Virus record (IMG/VR): IMGVR_UViG_2563366964_000009
DNA length: 30,303 nucleotides
Strand: one strand, 5' to 3'
Origin: a virus
Taxonomy: Duplodnaviria; Heunggongvirae; Uroviricota; Caudoviricetes
Below are positions 1,926 to 10,788 of this stretch, in pieces (positions within the stretch are counted from its first letter, which is position 1; the number at the start of each line of letters is the position of its first letter). The notes beneath the pieces were generated by a model that was not told where the DNA came from, ran no database searches, and saw only the letters and a program-made list of their open reading frames with translations. The position numbers and the translations under genes are program-made.

Positions 1926-2422
1926 CAGTGATGACGCTCAATCTCGTTGAAAAACAGCCAGCAGCTATGCGCCGGATAATTGGTAAGCATCTGGCCGTCC
2001 CTCGCTGGCAGGATACATGTGATTATTATAATCAGATGATGGAGCGCGAACGGCTAACAGTTTGCTTTCATGCGCAGTTAAAACAACGTCACGCAACGAT
2101 GCGTTTTGAAGAAATGAACGACGTCGAACGTGAACGGCTGGTTTGTGCAATTGATGAATTGCGTGGGGCATTCTCAAAACGCCGTCAGGTTGGCGCAAGT
2201 GAGTATGCATATATTAGTTTTTTAACAGTCAGTCAGCGTCGTACTTTATTTATGCATGCCGGATTGACTGAAAAAGAATTCAACCAGCCATACTGGCGAA
2301 TTAATGAAGAGTCATGTTACTGGCGTGATGCTTTATTCCGTGCATTACGTGAATTATTCAGTCTGTTTGAGTATGCACCGACAATTCTGACGTCGGTAAA
2401 ACCAGAGCAATATCTGCATTAA
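1922..2422 (+). CDS. Early protein at the P2 gene B position (possible replication protein B, DnaB-helicase loader); start uncertain (ATG 1916 or 1922)
   Basis: 168/166-aa ORF at the synteny position of P2 B; GGAGG SD upstream favours the 1922 ATG; identity as B rests on synteny and size, not a recognised motif. Confidence 0.5.
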   Translation: MTVMTLNLVEKQPAAMRRIIGKHLAVPRWQDTCDYYNQMMERERLTVCFHAQLKQRHATMRFEEMNDVERERLVCAIDELRGAFSKRRQVGASEYAYISFLTVSQRRTLFMHAGLTEKEFNQPYWRINEESCYWRDALFRALRELFSLFEYAPTILTSVKPEQYLH

Positions 2423-3236: not shown

Positions 3237-3508
3237 GTATTCGTATTGAAATTGGCGAACGTTATGTCGTTACCAGTGACAGCTTTCAGTTTATTCTCCA
3301 CGAGAAAAAGAGAGCGGAAAGCGGTAAAAACGCCGGTCAGGAATGGCTGGCGGTGGTTGGTTATTACCCGAAATTAAGCCAGCTCGTTTCCGGCCTGATG
3401 CATCACGATATTCTGACCGGAAGCGCAAAGTCTTTTGCTGATTTAAACGCGCAGGTTGAGCAACTCAGCAAGCGTTGTTCAGAGGCTTTTGGCTCATATG
3501 GCCGTTAA
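3233..3508 (+). CDS. Hypothetical early protein (P2 orf83 position)
   Basis: 91-aa ORF overlapping the previous stop; immediately precedes A. Confidence 0.6.
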   Translation: MSIRIEIGERYVVTSDSFQFILHEKKRAESGKNAGQEWLAVVGYYPKLSQLVSGLMHHDILTGSAKSFADLNAQVEQLSKRCSEAFGSYGR

Positions 3509-5780
3509 AGCCTCCGGGCGTTTTGTCCCTCCGTCAGCATTTGCCGCAGGCATCGGTGAGACGTTTACCGGTGCTTATGCATGGAACGCGCCACGCGAGG
3601 CCGTCGGGCGCGAAAGACCCCTTACACGTGACGAGATGCGTCAGGTGCAAGGTGTTTTATCCACGATTAATCGCCTGCCTTACTTTTTGCGCTCGCTGTT
3701 TACTTCACGCTATGACTACATCCGGCGCAATAAAAGCCCGGTGCACGGGTTTTATTTCCTCACATCCACTTTTCAGCGTCGTTTATGGCCGCGCATTGAG
3801 CGCGTTAATCAGCGCCATGAAATGAACACCGACGCGTCGTTGCTGTTTCTGGCAGAGCGTGACCACTATGCGCGCCTGCCTGGAATGAATGACAAGGAGC
3901 TGAAAAAGTTTGCCGCCCGTATCTCATCGCAGCTTTTCATAATGTATGAGGAACTCTGCGATGCCTGGGTGGATGCGCATGGCGAGAAAGAATCGCTGTT
4001 TACGGATGAGGCGCAGGCTCACCTGTATGGTCATGTTGCTGGCGCTGCACGTGCTTTCAATATTTCCCCGCTCTACTGGAAAAAATACCGTAAAGGGCAG
4101 ATGACCACGAGGCAGGCATATTCTGCCATTGCCCGTCTGTTTAACGATGAATGGTGGACTCATCAGCTTAAAGGCCAGCGTATGCGCTGGCATGAGGCGT
4201 TACTGATTGCTGTCGGGGAGGTCAATAAAGACCGTTCTCCTTATGCCAGTAAACATGCCATTCGTGATGTGCGTGCGCGCCGCCAGGCAAATCTGGAATT
4301 TCTTAAATCGTGTGACCTTGAAAACAGGGAAACCGGCGAGCGCATCGACCTTATCAGTAAGGTGATGGGCAGTATTTCTAATCCAGAAATTCGCCGGATG
4401 GAGCTGATGAACACCATCGCCGGTATTGAGCGTTACGCCGCCGCAGAGGGTGATGTGGGGATGTTTATCACGCTGACCGCGCCGTCAAAGTATCACCCGA
4501 CACGTCAGGTCGGAAAAGGCGAAAGTAAAACCGTCCAGCTTAATCACGGCTGGAACGATGAGGCATTTAATCCAAAGGATGCGCAGCGTTATCTCTGCCG
4601 CATCTGGAGCCTGATGCGCACGGCATTCAAGGATAATGATTTACAGGTCTACGGTTTGCGTGTCGTCGAGCCACACCACGACGGAACGCCGCACTGGCAT
4701 ATGATGCTTTTTTGTAATCCACGCCAGCGTAACCAGATTATCGAAATCATGCGGCGCTATGCGCTCAAAGAGGATGGTGACGAAAGAGGAGCCGCGCGAA
4801 ACCGTTTTCAGGCAAAGCACCTTAACCGGGGCGGTGCTGCGGGATATATCGCGAAATACATTTCAAAAAATATCGACGGCTATGCACTGGATGGTCAGCT
4901 CGATAACGATACCGGTAAGCCGCTTAAAGACACTGCAGCGGCTGTTACCGCATGGGCGTCAACGTGGCGCATCCCGCAATTTAAAACGGTTGGACTGCCG
5001 ACAATGGGGGCTTACCGTGAACTACGCAAATTGCCTCGCGGCGTCAGTATTGCTGATGAGTTTGACGAACGCGTCGAGGCTGCTCGCGCTGCCGCAGACA
5101 GTGGTGATTTTGCGTTGTATATCAGCGCGCAGGGTGGGGCAAATGTCCCGCGCGATTGTCAGACTGTCAGGGTTGCCCGTAGCCCGTCGGATGACGTTAA
5201 CGAGTACGAGGAAGAAGTCGAGAGAGTGGTCGGCATTTACGCGCCGCATCTCGGCGCGCGTCATATTCATATCACCAGAACGACGGACTGGCGCATTGTT
5301 CCGAAAGTTCCGGTCGTTGAGCCTTTGACTTTAAAAAGCGGCATCGCCGCGCCTCGGAGTCCTGTCAATAACTGTGGAAAACTCACCGGTGGTGATACTT
5401 CGTTACCGGCTCCCACACCTTCTGAGCACGCCGCAGCAGTGCTTAATCTGGTTGATGACGGTGTTATCGAATGGAGTGACCCGGAGGTCGTGAGGGCGCT
5501 CAGAGGTGCATTAAAACACAGTCGGAGAACGCCAAGTCGTCAGCAAAGAAACGGAAGCCCGTTAAAACCACATGAAATTGCACCATCGGCCAGACTGACC
5601 CGGTCGGAAAGAATGCAAATTACCCGTATCCGCGTTGACCTTGCTCAGAACGGTATCAGGCCGCAGCGATGGGAGCTTGAGGCGCTGGCGCGTGGCGCGA
5701 CCGTAAATTATGATGGGAAAAAATTCACGTATCCGGTTGTTGATGAGTGGCGGTGGTATATAGTTGATGGTAGGCGGTGA
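3498..5780 (+). CDS. A: Replication initiation protein A (rolling-circle nicking endonuclease); start taken at MAVKASGRF, alternative ATG at 3456
   Basis: 760-aa ORF; contains the tyrosine-rich active-site block GYIAKYISKNIDGY typical of P2 gpA/phiX174 A-type initiators; conserved position after the small early ORFs. Confidence 0.9.
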   Translation: MAVKASGRFVPPSAFAAGIGETFTGAYAWNAPREAVGRERPLTRDEMRQVQGVLSTINRLPYFLRSLFTSRYDYIRRNKSPVHGFYFLTSTFQRRLWPRIERVNQRHEMNTDASLLFLAERDHYARLPGMNDKELKKFAARISSQLFIMYEELCDAWVDAHGEKESLFTDEAQAHLYGHVAGAARAFNISPLYWKKYRKGQMTTRQAYSAIARLFNDEWWTHQLKGQRMRWHEALLIAVGEVNKDRSPYASKHAIRDVRARRQANLEFLKSCDLENRETGERIDLISKVMGSISNPEIRRMELMNTIAGIERYAAAEGDVGMFITLTAPSKYHPTRQVGKGESKTVQLNHGWNDEAFNPKDAQRYLCRIWSLMRTAFKDNDLQVYGLRVVEPHHDGTPHWHMMLFCNPRQRNQIIEIMRRYALKEDGDERGAARNRFQAKHLNRGGAAGYIAKYISKNIDGYALDGQLDNDTGKPLKDTAAAVTAWASTWRIPQFKTVGLPTMGAYRELRKLPRGVSIADEFDERVEAARAAADSGDFALYISAQGGANVPRDCQTVRVARSPSDDVNEYEEEVERVVGIYAPHLGARHIHITRTTDWRIVPKVPVVEPLTLKSGIAAPRSPVNNCGKLTGGDTSLPAPTPSEHAAAVLNLVDDGVIEWSDPEVVRALRGALKHSRRTPSRQQRNGSPLKPHEIAPSARLTRSERMQITRIRVDLAQNGIRPQRWELEALARGATVNYDGKKFTYPVVDEWRWYIVDGRR

Positions 5781-5956
5781 AAAGTTGAAGATGTGAACAC
5801 TGTTATTGGTAGGTAAGTAGATTTGTATGTATAAAGTAGTTGTTGTAGATATGAACAATCAGGCGTAGAATCGCCAGCCGGCTATGATGATTCCAGATGA
5901 TAATGGTTATCATTAGCTGTTGATTTATGATGTTCTTAACCACTAGAGAGACTAAT

Positions 5957-6154
5957 ATGAGCAAAAAGGTTATCACGATACAAGTAAGAGGTGGGCACGC
6001 AGGTGCTAAGCCTGTTCGTCGTTCAAAACTTGAACAAAGTGTTAATCGTTCCCTGCGTGCTTCGTTTTCTCTGGAAGGTAATCACATTACCAACACTTCA
6101 TGGTCTAAAATGTCGCAGGCTGCACGTTTTCTGACCAGAGTGGCTGTTGCTTAA
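5957..6154 (+). CDS. Small basic protein carrying a Fic-inhibitory-helix-like motif (candidate FicA-type antitoxin)
   Basis: 65-aa ORF from the ATG at 5957 (GAGAG SD-like upstream); motif S-F-S-L-E-G at 6062-6079 matches [S/T]xxxE[G/N]; its stop overlaps the convergent Fic gene stop in a shared TTAA (6151-6154). Confidence 0.5.
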   Translation: MSKKVITIQVRGGHAGAKPVRRSKLEQSVNRSLRASFSLEGNHITNTSWSKMSQAARFLTRVAVA

Positions 6155-7257
6155 AGCTCTTTGATTGCCCTTGAAATAAGGGCAATCAGATTTCTGTTAC
6201 TGTCGTGTATTGCGCGTCTTACAGCATAATGGTACGCACGTTTATTTCGCACATCTCCATCTAGCTTTTCCATATCAAATTCATAACCCATAGTAGTTGC
6301 AACAATCTGAAGAAATAATCGTATTGAACGACCATTACCATCTTGAAAGGGGTGGATCCATGCGATTTCTGCATGGAGAGTAGCTAGTTTATGAACTAAC
6401 TCTGCTTTAGAATTTATTTTGCTAAGTTCTTTTTTTGTGCAACCTCTAAGACAGGCTTTTAATGATTTTTTGACTTCATTATGTTCCATTGTTGGTCGCT
6501 CTTTATCTCCAACAACAACGGGATGGTTTCTGTATTCACCTGCCCAATCATAAATATGGCCAAAAAGAGCTTTATGGCATTCTAAGATCGTCTTTTCATT
6601 AATTGTTTTATTTTTGTCGGAGACATAGTTTATTATGAGCTGCGTACTTTTGATATATGAAATAACCATTTCGGCAAATTCAACTTGGTATTGATATTTT
6701 GCAAATACTAGATTTTTTGTTGCCATGTATTCATATCTTTCATTTTTCCCGTCACGTAAAAGAAAAATATTGTCTTTTTGGTGCTTTACTTTGATTACAT
6801 GATTGCGTTGAAATGGAAAGTTTTTGTCGTGAGGCAATATGTGAAAATAAGTTTCTTTTTTTAGCTTGTCTACACCAACAATTGAACCAAAAAGAAAAAG
6901 GGCTGCTGTTGTATTAAATAAAACACATACGGAGTCGCCAAGTTGTATCTCTTCGCGACTTAGATCGCATGTTTTTTTCTTATAATTAAATAAATGGGCG
7001 ATAGATGGTATGCTGTGATGATTGCGCAATGAACCTGAGCCACATATGACTTCTTTTGTCCTGCTATTCCAGTAATAATTAATGCTTCTCTTATTCTCTT
7101 GTGTTCTTTTTATATGAACCAACTTGAAGCTAAGTAGGCTTAAAGAGAATTCACCATTCTTTTTGACTATATTAACTTTTTGGTGTTTCATTTTGTTTTT
7201 TTTGTTAGTGTTATTGAAAAATGTTTTGAAGGTATCATGTTTTGAGTAAGAATGCAT
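6151..7257 (-). CDS. Fic/Doc-family protein (predicted AMP-transferase toxin) with an uncharacterised ~200-aa N-terminal domain
   Basis: 368-aa minus-strand ORF; canonical Fic active-site motif HPFQDGNGRSIR preceded by the core block KALFGHIYDWAGEYRN; strongly AT-rich, K/N/I/F/Y-rich N-terminal half. Confidence 0.85.
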   Translation of the reverse strand: MHSYSKHDTFKTFFNNTNKKNKMKHQKVNIVKKNGEFSLSLLSFKLVHIKRTQENKRSINYYWNSRTKEVICGSGSLRNHHSIPSIAHLFNYKKKTCDLSREEIQLGDSVCVLFNTTAALFLFGSIVGVDKLKKETYFHILPHDKNFPFQRNHVIKVKHQKDNIFLLRDGKNERYEYMATKNLVFAKYQYQVEFAEMVISYIKSTQLIINYVSDKNKTINEKTILECHKALFGHIYDWAGEYRNHPVVVGDKERPTMEHNEVKKSLKACLRGCTKKELSKINSKAELVHKLATLHAEIAWIHPFQDGNGRSIRLFLQIVATTMGYEFDMEKLDGDVRNKRAYHYAVRRAIHDSNRNLIALISRAIKEL

Positions 7258-7620
7258 GGTTATTATAACATGTTAGAGTTTTATCGCTAAAAAATGGATG
7301 TAGTGAGAAGTTTGTTGCTCATGACATTTACACTTAAGATGAACAGGAGGTGCTGTTTCGGTAAGATTATCTTTGTCCCATCACATAGCACAGCTCAATT
7401 TATCACTCATATCTTCATTTCCTTCCAGTGACAACACAAAGCTTTAAAGTCACCTTCTGTGATGCTGCTTTATGTCATTTCATAAGATCAGAGTTATGCA
7501 TGCATTAGGTGCATGGCTTTGCATGTATCAGAATTATACGTTTTCGGCGTCCGACATCACAGCTAGTTTGGATTCAGAGATGTCATGCAACCGCATTAAA
7601 ACCTCCACATGAAGCGGGCG

Positions 7621-7639
7621 GGCGAGGCGGGGAAAGCAC
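7621..7639. other. cos site (19-nt cohesive-end sequence, P2 type)
   Basis: Sequence GGCGAGGCGGGGAAAGCAC matches the P2 cohesive end as recalled; lies just outside the end of Q as in P2. Confidence 0.7.
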
Positions 7640-7808: not shown

Positions 7809-8843
7809 TCAGCCGTTGTCAGTGTCCAGTGAGTAGTTTTTAAATCGGATGACCTCCTGACCGAGCCAGCCGTTTATTTCGCGGATCCTGTCCTGTAACG
7901 GGATAAGCTCATTGCGGACAAAGACCTTTGCCACTTTCTCAATATCACCCAGCGACCCGACGTTCTCCGGCTTGCCCCCCATCAACTGAAAGGGGATGCG
8001 ATGCGCGTCCAGCAGGTCAGCGGCGCTGGCTTTTTTGATATTAAAAAAATCGTCCTTCGTTGCCACTTCACTGAGCGGGATAATTTTAATGCCGTCGGCT
8101 TTCCCCTGTGGGGCATAGAGAAACAGATTTTTAAAGTTATTGCGGCCTTTCGACTTAACCATGTTTTCGCGAAGCATTTCGATATCGTTGCGATCCTGCA
8201 CGGCATCGGTGACGTACATGATGTATCCGGCATGAGCGCCGTTTTCGTAATACTTGCGGCGGAACAGCGTGGCCGACTCATTCAGCCAGGCAGAGTTAAG
8301 GGCGCTGAGATATTCCGGCAGGCCGTACAGCTCCTGATTAATATCCGGCTCCAGCAGGTGAAACACGGAGCCGGGTGCGAAGGCTGTCGGCTCGTTGAAG
8401 GACGGCACCCACCAGTAAACATCCTCTTCCACACCACGGCGGGTATATTTTGCCGGTGAGGTTTCCAGTCTGATGACCTTACCGGTGGTGCTGTAACGCT
8501 TTTCCAGAAACGCATTACCGAACACCAGAAAATCCAGCACAAAGCGGCTGAAATCCTGTTGCGAAAGCCACGGATGCGGGATAAACGTTGAAGCCAGAAT
8601 ATTGCGTTTGACGTAAATCGGTGAGCTGTGATGCACGGCAGCACGCAGGCTTTTTGCCAGACCGGTAAAGCTGACCGGTGGCTCATACCATCTGCCGTTA
8701 CTGATGCACTCGACGTAATCCAGAATGTCACGGCGGTCGAGTACCGGCACCGGCTCACCAAAGGTGAATGCCTCCATTTTCGGGGCGCTGGCGGTCATTG
8801 TTTTTGCCGCAGGTTGCGGTGTTTTCCCTTTTTTCTTGCTCAT
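7809..8843 (-). CDS. Q: Portal protein
   Basis: 344 aa; N-terminus MSKKKGKTPQPAAK... and overall sequence resemble P2 gpQ as recalled; adjacent to cos and terminase. Confidence 0.95.
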   Translation of the reverse strand: MSKKKGKTPQPAAKTMTASAPKMEAFTFGEPVPVLDRRDILDYVECISNGRWYEPPVSFTGLAKSLRAAVHHSSPIYVKRNILASTFIPHPWLSQQDFSRFVLDFLVFGNAFLEKRYSTTGKVIRLETSPAKYTRRGVEEDVYWWVPSFNEPTAFAPGSVFHLLEPDINQELYGLPEYLSALNSAWLNESATLFRRKYYENGAHAGYIMYVTDAVQDRNDIEMLRENMVKSKGRNNFKNLFLYAPQGKADGIKIIPLSEVATKDDFFNIKKASAADLLDAHRIPFQLMGGKPENVGSLGDIEKVAKVFVRNELIPLQDRIREINGWLGQEVIRFKNYSLDTDNG

Positions 8844-10615
8844 CAGTAAAACTCCAGAATGGTGGATGTCAGCGGGGTACTGATACCGGCGGTGAGTGGC
8901 TCATTTAACAGGGCGTGCATGGTCGCCCAGGCGAGGTCGGCGTGGCTGGCTTCCTCGCTGCGGCTGGCCTCATAGGTGGCGCTGCGTCCGCTGCTGGTCA
9001 TGGTCTTGCGGATAGCCATAAACGAGCTGGTGATGTCGGTGGCGCTGACGTCATATTCCAGACAGCCACGGCGAATAACGTCTTTTGCCTTGAGCACCAT
9101 TGCGGTTTTCATTTCCGGCGTGTAGCGGATATCGCGCGCGGCGGGATAGAACGAGCGCACGAGCTGGAACACGCCGACACCGAGGCCGGTGGCATCAATG
9201 CCGATGTATTCGACGTTGTATTTTTCGGTGAGTTTGCGGATGGATTCCGCCTGGGTGGCAAAGTCCATGCCTTTCCACTGGTGACGCTCAAGTATTCTGA
9301 ATTTGCCACCGGCCACCACCGGCGGTGCCAGTACCACGCATCCGGCGCTGTCGCCACGGTGTGACGGGTCGTAACCAATCCATACCGGACGGGAGCCGAA
9401 CGGATTGGCGGCAAACGGCGCATAGTCTTCCCATTCTTCCAGCGTGTCGACCATGCAGCGTTGCAGCTCCTCGAACGGGAACACCGACGCCTTGTCGTCA
9501 ACAAATTCACACATGAACAGGTTTTTAAAATCGTCGGCGCTGTTTTCACGTTTGAGCTGCTCAATGTCGAACAGTGTGCAGCCACCTTTCAGGGCGTCCT
9601 CAATGGTGACAATCTGCCGCCACTGACCGTCCGCACAGAGAAGACCTCCGGCAAGGGCGTTATGACTGACGTCGATTTCCACGCGCTCGGCGGCGCTGGC
9701 GCGTCCCCGGTTGAACAGTTCACCCGACCAGAACGGATAGGCGTCGTGCGCCAGCGTGGACGGGGTGGAGAAATAGGTCGATCGCAGGTGACTCTGTGAG
9801 GCCATACCTGATGCCACCTTACGCAGCACCTGAAAATTCGGGATCCAGAAAATCTCGTCGACGTACAGGTCGCCGTTATGGCTCTGCGCGGTGTTGGAGT
9901 TGGTGCCGAGAAAAATCAGTTTTGCGCCGTTATTGCCCAGGACAATCGGGTCACCGGTCAGGTCAACATCAACCAGACGGGCAAAGGCGATGATGTATTC
10001 GCGGAACACATACGCCTGCGTTTTACTGGCCGACAGAAAAATCTGGTTATGACCGGTTTTCAGGGCGCGCAGCAGCGCCTCGCGGGAAAAATAAAACGTC
10101 GCGCCAATCTGGCGGGATTTCAGGATATCGCGGATGCGGTGCTCAAGCCCGGCGCGATACCAGTGCAACTGATAGTCGAAAGACTGCTCAAAGAAAATCT
10201 GCTCCAGCTTTTCGATGGCCTCGTCACTGAAAAAATTCTTTTTCGGTTTGCGCCGCCCGCCTTTGTTGCGGTTAGCGACGTTCGGATTAAGGTCTGCCTC
10301 GTTGCCGGTCTGGCTGTAGCGGTTGACCCGTGCCAGTCGTTCAATCTGGCGTCCGAGCAGGTCAATTTCCTTGAAGTCACCGCCGGTTTTCTGCGGTTTG
10401 ATGATGAGCTGGGTCAGCCGCGCTTCCAGACTCATTTCGACACGGCTGATGGGGGCAACGCTGTCCCAGCCGTCGCGCTGTTTCCAGCTCTGCACCGTCG
10501 GGCGTTTCATCTGCAACATGGCGGCAATCTGCGGCACGGAAAACCCCTGCCAGTACAGCAGCGCCGCCTGACGACGCGGGTCGTGTAAAAGAGTGGTGTC
10601 TGTGGTGATGGTCAT
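8843..10615 (-). CDS. P: Terminase large subunit (ATPase/nuclease)
   Basis: N-terminus MTITTDTTLLHDPRRQAALLYWQGFSVPQIAAMLQ resembles P2 gpP; the ORF-track start at 10645 is a TTG and the ATG at 10613-10615 is preferred; stop overlaps the Q start. Confidence 0.95.
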   Translation of the reverse strand: MTITTDTTLLHDPRRQAALLYWQGFSVPQIAAMLQMKRPTVQSWKQRDGWDSVAPISRVEMSLEARLTQLIIKPQKTGGDFKEIDLLGRQIERLARVNRYSQTGNEADLNPNVANRNKGGRRKPKKNFFSDEAIEKLEQIFFEQSFDYQLHWYRAGLEHRIRDILKSRQIGATFYFSREALLRALKTGHNQIFLSASKTQAYVFREYIIAFARLVDVDLTGDPIVLGNNGAKLIFLGTNSNTAQSHNGDLYVDEIFWIPNFQVLRKVASGMASQSHLRSTYFSTPSTLAHDAYPFWSGELFNRGRASAAERVEIDVSHNALAGGLLCADGQWRQIVTIEDALKGGCTLFDIEQLKRENSADDFKNLFMCEFVDDKASVFPFEELQRCMVDTLEEWEDYAPFAANPFGSRPVWIGYDPSHRGDSAGCVVLAPPVVAGGKFRILERHQWKGMDFATQAESIRKLTEKYNVEYIGIDATGLGVGVFQLVRSFYPAARDIRYTPEMKTAMVLKAKDVIRRGCLEYDVSATDITSSFMAIRKTMTSSGRSATYEASRSEEASHADLAWATMHALLNEPLTAGISTPLTSTILEFY

Positions 10616-10788
10616 GAATACCTCGCCGTGATGAATACACGGCAAGGCTACTGAGTCGCGCCCCGCGATTCGCTAAGGTGCTGTTGTGTCAGTGATAAGC
10701 CATCCGGGACTGATGGCGGAGGATGCGCATCGTCGGGAAACTGATGCCGACATGTGACTCCTCTAATCACTATTCAGGACTCCTGACA
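10616..10788. promoter_or_regulatory. Divergent late promoter region between P (minus) and O (plus)
   Basis: Divergent intergenic region at the position of the P2 late promoters; no clean TGT-N12-ACA Ogr-type dyad could be confirmed by eye. Confidence 0.35.

What the first reader, a model, noticed from the sequence alone, without database searches (positions are those of the whole stretch)
5957..6154. Convergent 65-aa ORF carrying the Fic inhibitory-helix signature SxxxEG: putative trans-acting antitoxin in an atypical orientation
The small protein contains S-F-S-L-E-G (nt 6062-6079), matching the [S/T]xxxE[G/N] motif by which class I Fic antitoxins (VbhA/FicA type) insert a glutamate into the Fic ATP site. 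By rough estimate a chance match in 65 aa is around 5 percent, so this is suggestive, not proof. Known FicA-FicT pairs are co-directional with the antitoxin upstream. Here the two genes are convergent and their stop codons overlap in a shared TTAA (6151-6154), so the 3' ends of the two transcripts would be antisense to each other and there is no room for terminators. This could add antisense-RNA or transcriptional-interference control.
Basis: partly seen in the sequence, partly recalled or inferred. Interest (0 to 1): 0.8.

Follow-up and report, generated by a model that had tools for sequence, protein, structure and literature searches.

The report
Tail-to-tail Fic toxin and antitoxin
A P2-like prophage carries a Fic toxin gene that meets, tail to tail, a real 65-residue gene whose only invariant residues are the known Fic-inhibiting SxxxEG motif, so it is very probably a new kind of Fic antitoxin in an unusual but conserved gene layout.

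Summary
A 65-aa ORF (5957-6154, +) carries S-F-S-L-E-G at nt 6062-6079. Its stop codon overlaps that of a convergent Fic gene in TTAA (6151-6154).

The antitoxin reading is well supported by comparison, though nothing was tested biochemically:
- The ORF is under purifying selection (dN/dS 0.09-0.2 in most pairs, highest 0.44).
- A homologous small ORF lies tail to tail with every intact homologous Fic gene examined, down to 34% Fic identity. These loci sit in P2-like and lambdoid prophages, small Rep3 plasmids and a Photorhabdus chromosome.
- Across that family the only invariant or near-invariant residues include S36, E40 and G41.
- The Fic protein has a canonical catalytic motif and no inhibitory motif of its own. 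Its fold is closest to the class I toxins VbhT, EcFicT and Fic-1.
- The one family member lacking the glutamate sits at a locus where Fic has been deleted.

"No room for terminators" is wrong: a covarying, strand-specific terminator hairpin for the small gene lies inside the last Fic codons. The small protein is not a detectable member of the VbhA or YhfG families.

The cassette lies in the P2 gpA-gpQ hotspot, where it was catalogued in 2022 as "Fic + hypothetical" and, as far as I found, never characterised. Verdict: a new variant of a known kind.

The parts
5957..6154 (+). Small gene (65 aa; PGAP WP_016236400.1, 'hypothetical'; phrog_9918), candidate trans-acting Fic antitoxin
   Evidence: ORF; annotated by PGAP; dN/dS 0.09-0.2 in most pairs, highest 0.44; always paired with an intact Fic gene
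6062..6079 (+). Codons S36-F-S-L-E40-G41, the [S/T]xxxE[G/N] inhibitory-helix motif
   Evidence: Invariant in 16 close homologues. S36 and G41 are invariant and E40 near-invariant in the distant alignment A4. In the AF2 model the motif ends helix 22-40
6151..7191 (-). Fic gene (346 aa; the ORF extends to an unlikely ATG at 7257): N-terminal all-beta domain (about aa 1-150) plus a class I-like FIC domain (aa 167-346)
6319..6354 (-). Catalytic FIC motif HPFQDGNGRSIR (canonical HxFx[D/E]GNGRxxR)
   Evidence: Regex match; these residues are invariant in the 25-sequence alignment A5
6151..6154 (.). TTAA shared by the two convergent stop codons
   Evidence: The same 4-nt overlap occurs in L002, L007-L011, L022/23 and L025. 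Other loci have 8-, 14-, 38- or 41-nt overlaps, or 8- to 15-nt gaps
6160..6198 (+). Terminator-like hairpin (stem 6160-6190) plus T-rich tail for the small gene, embedded in the last ~15 codons of Fic
   Evidence: Terminator scan. Hairpin present in 9 loci. 96% of cells paired, 6 of 11 pairs with compensatory changes, slid controls 28-48% paired. Wobble pairs are G.U on the + strand only
5843..5871 (+). Inferred promoter of the small gene (-35 TTGTAG 5843-5848, 17-nt spacer, -10 TAGAAT 5866-5871)
   Evidence: Read from the sequence. The block is conserved in FSL SP-004, L007 and L010. It falls below the threshold of the consensus scan, so it is inferred
5898..5912 (+). Conserved palindrome TGATAATGGTTATCA (Fur-box-like) in the leader of the small gene; possible operator
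   Evidence: One mismatch to TGATAATNATTATCA; chance expectation 0.08 per window. Kept at the same place in L001-3, L002 and L007-11
7262..7290 (-). Inferred Fic promoter (-35 TTAGCG 7290-7285, extended -10 TGTTATAAT 7270-7262)
   Evidence: Sequence. Homologues carry extended -10-like TGnTATAnT elements upstream of the shared start codon. Inferred only
5781..7500 (.). Low-GC accessory island (30-43% GC against 52-58% in the flanks) between replication gene A and cos/portal gene Q
   Evidence: Composition profile; flanking genes; P2 cos 19-mer at 7621-7639

Best explanation
The window is a P2-like prophage. Between replication gene A and cos/portal gene Q it carries a low-GC, two-gene toxin-antitoxin cassette.

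The toxin is a Fic AMP-transferase of the class I type. It has a canonical active site and no built-in inhibitory helix, and it is extended by an N-terminal all-beta domain of unknown role.

The 65-aa protein encoded on the opposite strand supplies the missing inhibitory helix in trans. Helix 22-40 ends in S36-x-x-x-E40-G41. E40 is inferred to reach into the ATP site and pair with the second arginine of the FIC motif. That would hold ATP in a non-productive pose, as VbhA, EcFicA/YhfG and AntF do.

The two genes have separate, convergent promoters. The small gene terminates at a hairpin built into the last codons of Fic, so its mRNA 3' end is complementary to about 45 nt of the Fic mRNA.

When the small protein is lost or displaced, Fic would AMPylate a cellular target and stop growth. 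By analogy with FicT toxins, the target would be GyrB/ParE.

Shown here: coding status, obligate linkage, motif conservation, class I-like fold, and the embedded terminator structure. Inferred: binding, inhibition, toxicity, the target, and the biological role. The role could be anti-phage abortive infection or exclusion, given the P2 hotspot, or plasmid/prophage stabilisation, given the copies on small plasmids.
For: The small gene is real and functionally tied to Fic:
- It is under purifying selection: dN/dS 0.09-0.2 in most pairs, highest 0.44, over pairs with dS 0.24-2.6.
- PGAP annotates it.
- Every intact homologous Fic gene examined has a 63-68-aa ORF (one gene call of 86 aa) tail to tail at its 3' end. 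This covers Fic identities of 100% down to 34%, in P2-like prophages of E. coli, Salmonella, Enterobacter, Serratia and others, a lambdoid-type prophage, small Rep3 plasmids and a Photorhabdus chromosome.

The motif is what is conserved:
- In the alignment of these small ORFs, S36 and G41 are the only invariant columns. E40 is near-invariant, together with L39, L25 and R11.
- The chance that all three motif positions fall in the top six columns is 4.6e-4.
- The only member with Ala instead of Glu (P0049) sits at the Photorhabdus locus where about 930 bp of Fic are deleted. The sister locus with Fic intact keeps SFSLEG.

Fic needs a trans-acting inhibitor:
- It carries HPFQDGNGRSIR and has no [ST]xxxE[GN] anywhere in its 368 aa.
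- Its best sequence matches in the PDB are VbhT (2e-12) and EcFic (3e-9).
- Its best fold matches are VbhT, EcFicT and Fic-1, all solved with trans antitoxins.

Structure and alignment are consistent:
- AF2 predicts that the motif closes a helix, followed by a second helix.
- hhalign places the motif in register with YhfG and VbhA.
Against: The small protein has no significant sequence similarity to known FicA families. Pfam VbhA and YhfG are not hit by any of 14 members. A profile search of the PDB finds nothing. Profile-profile comparison gives E = 0.05 over only 18 columns. The AF2 model of the small protein is weak (pLDDT 67) and its fold search was uninformative. The conserved N-terminal segment (I-x-[IV]-Q-V-R-G, with R11 near-invariant) has no counterpart in VbhA or YhfG and is unexplained. 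The link between loss of the glutamate and loss of Fic rests on a single lineage. Toxicity is assumed: EcFicT, a class I relative, has no demonstrated toxicity (PMC5033356).
Confidence: 0.8

Rival explanations
1. The small protein is not merely an inhibitor. Together with Fic it forms a deAMPylase or bifunctional enzyme, with E40 as the catalytic switch, as reported for Fic-1-AntF and for FICD. On this view the pair sets a reversible modification level instead of acting as a kill switch.
For: Fic-1 (8wt0) is among the three closest folds. PMC13327609 reports that AntF E28, the motif glutamate, is essential both for inhibition and for deAMPylation of GyrB. This reading is compatible with all comparative evidence for the best explanation.
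Against: Nothing here distinguishes it from simple inhibition. The cassette is mobile and sits in a phage accessory hotspot and on small plasmids, which suits a toxin-antitoxin or defence role better than housekeeping regulation.
Confidence: 0.3
2. Control is mainly at the RNA level. The small gene's transcript acts as a 3'-overlapping antisense RNA, or convergent transcription interferes with Fic expression, as in type I systems such as yonT/SR6. The peptide would be secondary or irrelevant.
For: The convergent, overlapping layout is conserved in every lineage. The small gene's terminator lies inside Fic, giving a predicted complementarity of about 45 nt. No conserved terminator for Fic was found antisense to the small gene, so read-through is likely. 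Full-text search finds convergent 3'-overlap layouts described for type I systems.
Against: Strong purifying selection acts on the amino-acid sequence, with many synonymous changes. The SxxxEG residues are invariant, which shows that the protein matters. The extent of overlap varies from a 15-nt gap to a 41-nt overlap, so no fixed RNA duplex is conserved. As an extra layer this remains possible; as the sole mechanism it is unlikely.
Confidence: 0.1
3. The motif is a coincidence. The small ORF would be an unrelated phage accessory protein, for example a regulator, that happens to sit next to Fic.
For: A single 65-aa sequence has a 3-4% chance of carrying the motif. There is no significant homology to known FicA families.
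Against: The motif residues are the best-conserved positions across homologues as low as 18% identity. The pair travels together through four kinds of replicon. Fic lacks an inhibitory helix of its own. The glutamate is lost only where Fic is lost.
Confidence: 0.05

Closest known systems
Class I Fic toxin-antitoxin modules (FicTA): VbhT-VbhA of Bartonella schoenbuchensis, EcFicT-EcFicA (Fic-YhfG) of E. coli, Fic-1-AntF of Pseudomonas
   Same: The FIC domain has a canonical HxFx(D/E)GNGRxxR motif and no intramolecular inhibitory helix. The closest sequence and fold matches are exactly these toxins. A separate small helical protein of about 60 aa carries [S/T]xxxE[G/N] at the end of a helix.
   Different: The antitoxin gene is convergent and overlaps the toxin's 3' end, whereas in FicTA modules it lies immediately upstream in an operon. 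The small protein is not detectably homologous to VbhA (PF18495) or YhfG (PF10832), and it has an extra conserved N-terminal segment. The toxin carries a ~150-aa N-terminal all-beta domain that is absent from those toxins. The small gene's terminator is embedded in the toxin's coding sequence.
SoFic / EcSofic-AS1 anti-phage system
   Same: It is a Fic AMP-transferase linked to phage defence, and a small neighbouring gene (AS1, 47 aa, downstream) counteracts its toxicity (PMC12249575).
   Different: SoFic is a class II Fic with its own N-terminal inhibitory helix and a C-terminal domain. How AS1 works is unknown, and it is not reported to carry the motif. Here the PADLOC SoFic model matches only weakly (1.8e-13, partial), whereas PDC-S04 gives 2.7e-33.
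Accessory and defence cassettes of the P2 gpA-gpQ hotspot (old, tin and others; Rousset et al. 2022)
   Same: The position is identical, between gene A and cos/gene Q. The island is low-GC and variable. This exact gene pair is listed in the paper's Table S5A as 'Fic + hypothetical', WP_021522894 + WP_016236400.
   Different: It is only catalogued there. It is not discussed in the main text I read or searched, and no function or antitoxin role is assigned to the small gene.
Type I toxin-antitoxin systems with convergent 3'-overlapping antitoxin RNAs (for example yonT/SR6 on B. subtilis prophage SPbeta)
   Same: The toxin and antitoxin transcription units converge and are complementary at their 3' ends.
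   Different: In those systems the antitoxin is a non-coding RNA and the toxin is a small membrane peptide. Here the antitoxin transcript encodes a conserved protein under purifying selection and the toxin is an enzyme.

Membership tests
Class I Fic toxin-antitoxin module (FicTA) | Toxin has the canonical FIC motif HxFx(D/E)GNGRxxR | tested here: met
   HPFQDGNGRSIR at aa 280-291 of the 346-aa protein; invariant in 25 homologues
Class I Fic toxin-antitoxin module (FicTA) | Toxin lacks an intramolecular [S/T]xxxE[G/N] inhibitory helix (which would make it class II or III) | tested here: met
   No regex match anywhere in the 368-aa ORF
Class I Fic toxin-antitoxin module (FicTA) | A separate small protein carries [S/T]xxxE[G/N] in an alpha-helix | tested here: met
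   SFSLEG is invariant in close homologues. S, E and G are the most conserved columns in distant ones. The motif closes predicted helix 22-40, at pLDDT 74-79 in that region
Class I Fic toxin-antitoxin module (FicTA) | Antitoxin gene lies immediately upstream of, and in an operon with, the toxin gene | tested here: not met
   The genes are convergent, tail to tail, in all lineages examined. The literature standard is upstream and in an operon
Class I Fic toxin-antitoxin module (FicTA) | FIC domain fold groups with FicT toxins | tested here: met
   [not shown]
Class I Fic toxin-antitoxin module (FicTA) | Antitoxin binds the toxin and its glutamate occupies the ATP gamma-phosphate site, pairing with the second motif arginine | not testable with these tools
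Only indirect support exists: the glutamate is lost only where Fic is deleted
Class I Fic toxin-antitoxin module (FicTA) | Toxin inhibits growth and the antitoxin neutralises it | not testable with these tools
   Requires experiment
Pfam VbhA (PF18495) / YhfG (PF10832) antitoxin families | Significant match to the family profile | tested here: not met
   No hit at E<=10 for any of 14 family members, although the models recognise VbhA and YhfG. hhalign E is 0.009-0.24 against single sequences and 0.051 profile-to-profile, over 18 columns
P2-like phage gpA-gpQ accessory (defence) hotspot cassette | Variable cassette located between replication gene A and cos/portal gene Q | tested here: met
   gpA at 3456-5780, cos at 7621-7639, portal at 7809-8843. 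Only 11 of 5,426 complete E. coli genomes carry the full cassette, and one more carries it truncated, while the flanks are common. Listed in Table S5A of PMC9122126
P2-like phage gpA-gpQ accessory (defence) hotspot cassette | Confers resistance to other phages | not tested
   Not among the systems described in the P2-hotspot results section of PMC9122126. The PADLOC PDC-S04 match is to a candidate family only
Type I toxin-antitoxin (antisense RNA antitoxin) | Antitoxin RNA base-pairs with the toxin mRNA and controls its stability or translation | not testable with these tools
   A 3' complementarity of about 45 nt is predicted from the embedded terminator. No transcript data are available
SoFic (class II Fic defence system) | N-terminal intramolecular inhibitory helix and SoFic-type architecture | tested here: not met
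   No internal motif. The SoFic models match only partially (PADLOC 1.8e-13; NCBIfam SoFic 0.0088)

The most novel reading that the evidence does not exclude
The cassette would be a hybrid toxin-antitoxin system in which one convergent transcript neutralises the Fic toxin twice. Its protein inserts the SxxxEG glutamate into the active site. Its 3' end, fixed by a terminator written into the toxin's last codons, pairs with the toxin mRNA. The whole module, with the toxin's N-terminal beta domain as sensor or targeting device, would serve as an anti-phage abortive-infection system of the P2 hotspot.
Probability: 0.15. Interest if true: 0.8.

Novelty: new variant of a known kind. Interest (0 to 1): 0.6.

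Why it matters
Fic toxin-antitoxin modules are defined partly by their gene order, so searches that look for a small upstream gene miss this family. Both of its genes are currently labelled 'hypothetical' or 'unknown function' in RefSeq and PHROGs.

The finding supplies four things:
- a new carrier of the Fic inhibitory helix with no detectable homology to VbhA or YhfG;
- a protein-protein toxin-antitoxin pair whose convergent layout is conserved across phages, plasmids and chromosomes. I know of no other such pair, and a full-text search returned only type I examples;
- a clear case of a transcription terminator maintained by compensatory substitutions inside the coding sequence of the opposite gene;
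- a concrete, untested candidate for an AMPylation-based defence or exclusion system in the P2 hotspot.

The pair is small and easily cloned, so the predictions can be tested directly.

Tried and rejected
Approaches that led nowhere:
- Pfam, NCBIfam and PADLOC scans of the small protein gave no meaningful hit.
- phmmer and profile searches of the PDB with the small protein found nothing relevant.
- Profile-profile comparison with a VbhA/YhfG alignment gave E = 0.051, so homology is not established.
- RNAalifold on the minus strand antisense to the small gene found no conserved structure (-3.8 kcal/mol, covariation term +0.17). No Fic terminator was identified.

Ideas considered and rejected:
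- SoFic-AS1 as the same system. It is a class II Fic with a different small protein.
- The 368-aa start of Fic. An extended -10 element overlaps that ATG, and homologues start at the position of the 346-aa start.
- The 'fic' hit in the main text of Rousset et al. was the surname Fichant. Only the supplement lists the cassette.

Full report
**What is in the sequence**

The window is a nearly complete P2-like (Peduovirus) prophage. An integrase gene lies at its left end. Replication gene A is at 3456-5780 (+), the exact P2 cos 19-mer is at 7621-7639, and the portal and terminase genes are at 7809-10645 (-).

Between gene A and cos lies a low-GC island, 30-43% GC against 52-58% in the flanks. It holds two genes. 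The first is the 65-aa ORF at 5957-6154 (+). The second is a Fic-domain gene on the minus strand that ends at 6151.

S-F-S-L-E-G is encoded at 6062-6079, and the two stop codons share TTAA at 6151-6154.

PGAP annotates the small ORF as hypothetical protein WP_016236400.1. It annotates Fic as a 346-aa protein starting at 7191. The longer 368-aa reading is unlikely, because its ATG at 7257 overlaps an extended -10 element, TGTTATAAT.

**Is the small ORF a gene?**

Yes. Salmonella phage FSL SP-004 carries the same cassette at 76% DNA identity. It has an unannotated 65-aa ORF of the same length with the same TTAA overlap. The central 25 residues are identical, with several synonymous codon changes among them.

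Nei-Gojobori estimates over six loci give dN/dS of 0.09-0.2 in most pairs and 0.44 at the highest, at dS of 0.24-2.6. Only 4 nt overlap the other gene, so this constraint belongs to the small ORF itself.

**Is it linked to Fic?**

The small-protein family is narrow.
- A word-indexed search of 5.8 billion proteins gave 15 clusters, all of those named from Enterobacterales.
- An exhaustive HMMER search of 1.84 billion representatives gave 11 hits, of which five are further full-length small proteins of 64-68 aa.

I looked up the genomic context both of small-protein homologues and, independently, of Fic homologues down to 34% identity.
- Every locus with an intact Fic gene has a small ORF (63-68 aa; one gene call of 86 aa) tail to tail with it. 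The junction ranges from a 41-nt overlap to a 15-nt gap.
- The settings are P2-like prophages of several genera, a lambdoid-type prophage (L025), small Rep3 plasmids (L013-L016) and a Photorhabdus chromosome (L012).

The convergent layout is therefore ancestral and maintained. It is not an accident of this phage.

**Is the motif meaningful?**

Across 16 close homologues, VNRSLRASFSLEG is invariant.

In an alignment that includes partners of distant Fic proteins (18-25% identity to the query), S36 and G41 are the only invariant columns. The near-invariant columns are E40, L39, L25 and R11. The chance that all three motif positions fall among the six best-conserved of 65 columns is 4.6e-4.

There is one exception, P0049, which reads SFALAG. 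It sits at the same Photorhabdus locus as L012, but there about 930 bp of Fic have been deleted, leaving only the last ~135 nt of the gene. Either order of events, loss of the glutamate or loss of Fic coming first, ties that glutamate to Fic. This is a single lineage.

**Does Fic need a trans-acting inhibitor?**

- The protein carries the canonical motif HPFQDGNGRSIR and has no [ST]xxxE[GN] anywhere.
- Its best sequence matches in the PDB are VbhT and EcFic.

**What the small protein looks like**

AF2 gives a low-confidence model (pLDDT 67). The N-terminus (residues 1-21) is disordered, helix 22-40 ends at E40-G41, and a second helix spans 46-64. From my own knowledge of the VbhA structure, that places the motif where it sits at the end of the VbhA inhibitory helix; I did not check this here.

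The small protein is nevertheless not a detectable member of the known antitoxin families.
- No member of the family hits Pfam VbhA or YhfG, although those models do recognise VbhA and YhfG.
- A profile search of the PDB finds nothing.
- hhalign aligns only about 18 columns around the motif, in register, at E = 0.009-0.24 against single sequences and 0.051 profile-to-profile.

So it works like a FicA antitoxin, which is an inference. Its descent from FicA is not shown.

**Transcription**

A 14-pair hairpin at 6160-6190, followed by TTTCTGTT, lies just after the small gene's stop codon and inside the last ~15 codons of Fic.
- The hairpin is present in nine loci.
- On their alignment, 96% of cells pair, against 28-48% when the partners are slid.
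- Six of 11 pairs show compensatory changes on both sides.
- All the wobble pairs are G.U on the plus strand. They would be A-C mismatches on the minus strand, which points to function in the small gene's transcript.

The small mRNA should therefore extend about 45 nt into Fic. I found no conserved structure or terminator for Fic antisense to the small gene, so the 3' end of the Fic transcript is unknown. Overlap of the two transcripts is thus likely, and antisense effects are possible but untested.

Candidate promoters are inferred from sequence and conservation only.
- For the small gene: TTGTAG, 17 nt, TAGAAT at 5843-5871.
- For Fic: an extended -10 element at 7262-7270.

A conserved palindrome in the small gene's leader, TGATAATGGTTATCA at 5898-5912, differs at one position from the Fur 7-1-7 consensus as I recall it. 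The chance expectation is 0.08 per window. It may be an operator.

**Comparison with what is known**

According to the literature, class I FicA antitoxins (VbhA, EcFicA/YhfG, AntF, BiaA) are encoded immediately upstream of, and in an operon with, their toxins (PMC5033356, PMC13327609, PMC8401265). FicT toxins AMPylate GyrB and ParE. [quoted passage not shown]

This exact gene pair appears in Table S5A of Rousset et al. 2022 as 'Fic + hypothetical' in the P2 hotspot. It is not discussed in the main text I read or searched.

Other databases add little.
- PHROGs lists both proteins as unknown function.
- PADLOC matches the FIC domain to the candidate family PDC-S04.
- SoFic-AS1 is a different, class II system.

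**Verdict**

The antitoxin interpretation is well supported by comparative evidence (confidence about 0.8), but binding, toxicity and biological role remain inferred. The terminator claim is refuted, and antisense control remains open.

The cassette is rare. It is complete in 11 of 5,426 complete E. coli genomes and truncated in one more, and nine phage records carry it.

It is best described as a new variant of a known kind. It is a Fic toxin-antitoxin module with a new antitoxin family, a conserved convergent architecture with a terminator embedded in the toxin gene, and an extra N-terminal domain on the toxin.

Noticed in passing
window 5898-5912: Palindrome TGATAATGGTTATCA in the leader of the small gene. 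It differs at one position from the Fur-box 7-1-7 consensus TGATAATNATTATCA (consensus recalled from memory). It is kept, with one mismatch, at the same relative position in eight other loci. It could be a Fur site or an autoregulatory operator.
   Followed up: partly
[not shown]
   Followed up: partly
window 5957-5995 (small protein aa 1-13): The small protein has a conserved N-terminal segment, I-x-[IV]-Q-V-R-G, with R11 near-invariant. AF2 predicts it to be disordered, and it has no counterpart in VbhA or YhfG. It might add a strand to a Fic beta-sheet, but this was not tested.
   Followed up: no
L019-L021 (Photorhabdus), compared with L012: An orphan small gene remains after an internal Fic deletion of about 930 bp. 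It carries E40A and S38A, while the terminator hairpin and the last ~135 nt of Fic are retained.
   Followed up: yes
L016 2818-3507: A metagenomic Rep3 plasmid contig carries a tandem second copy of the 67-aa small gene, separated from the first by a 72-aa Fic fragment. This looks like a partial duplication of the junction.
   Followed up: no
window 7255-7270 (-): An extended -10 element, TGTTATAAT, overlaps the ATG at 7257. That ATG gives the mechanical 368-aa ORF, so the element supports the 346-aa start at 7191 used by PGAP.
   Followed up: partly
window 7621-7639: An exact copy of the P2 cos 19-mer, GGCGAGGCGGGGAAAGCAC (sequence recalled from memory), lies between the cassette and portal gene Q. 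In the virion DNA the cassette would therefore sit at the end of the genome, like old and tin in P2.
   Followed up: yes
window 2020-2034: A second, weaker Fur-box-like palindrome, TGATTATTATAATCA (two mismatches), lies in the early region of the prophage.
   Followed up: no
window 5957-6151; phrog_37121: Besides its own family (phrog_9918), the small protein matches a second PHROG of unknown function, phrog_37121, at 1.8e-5 over residues 25-59, which span the motif. This suggests further phage-borne relatives.
   Followed up: no
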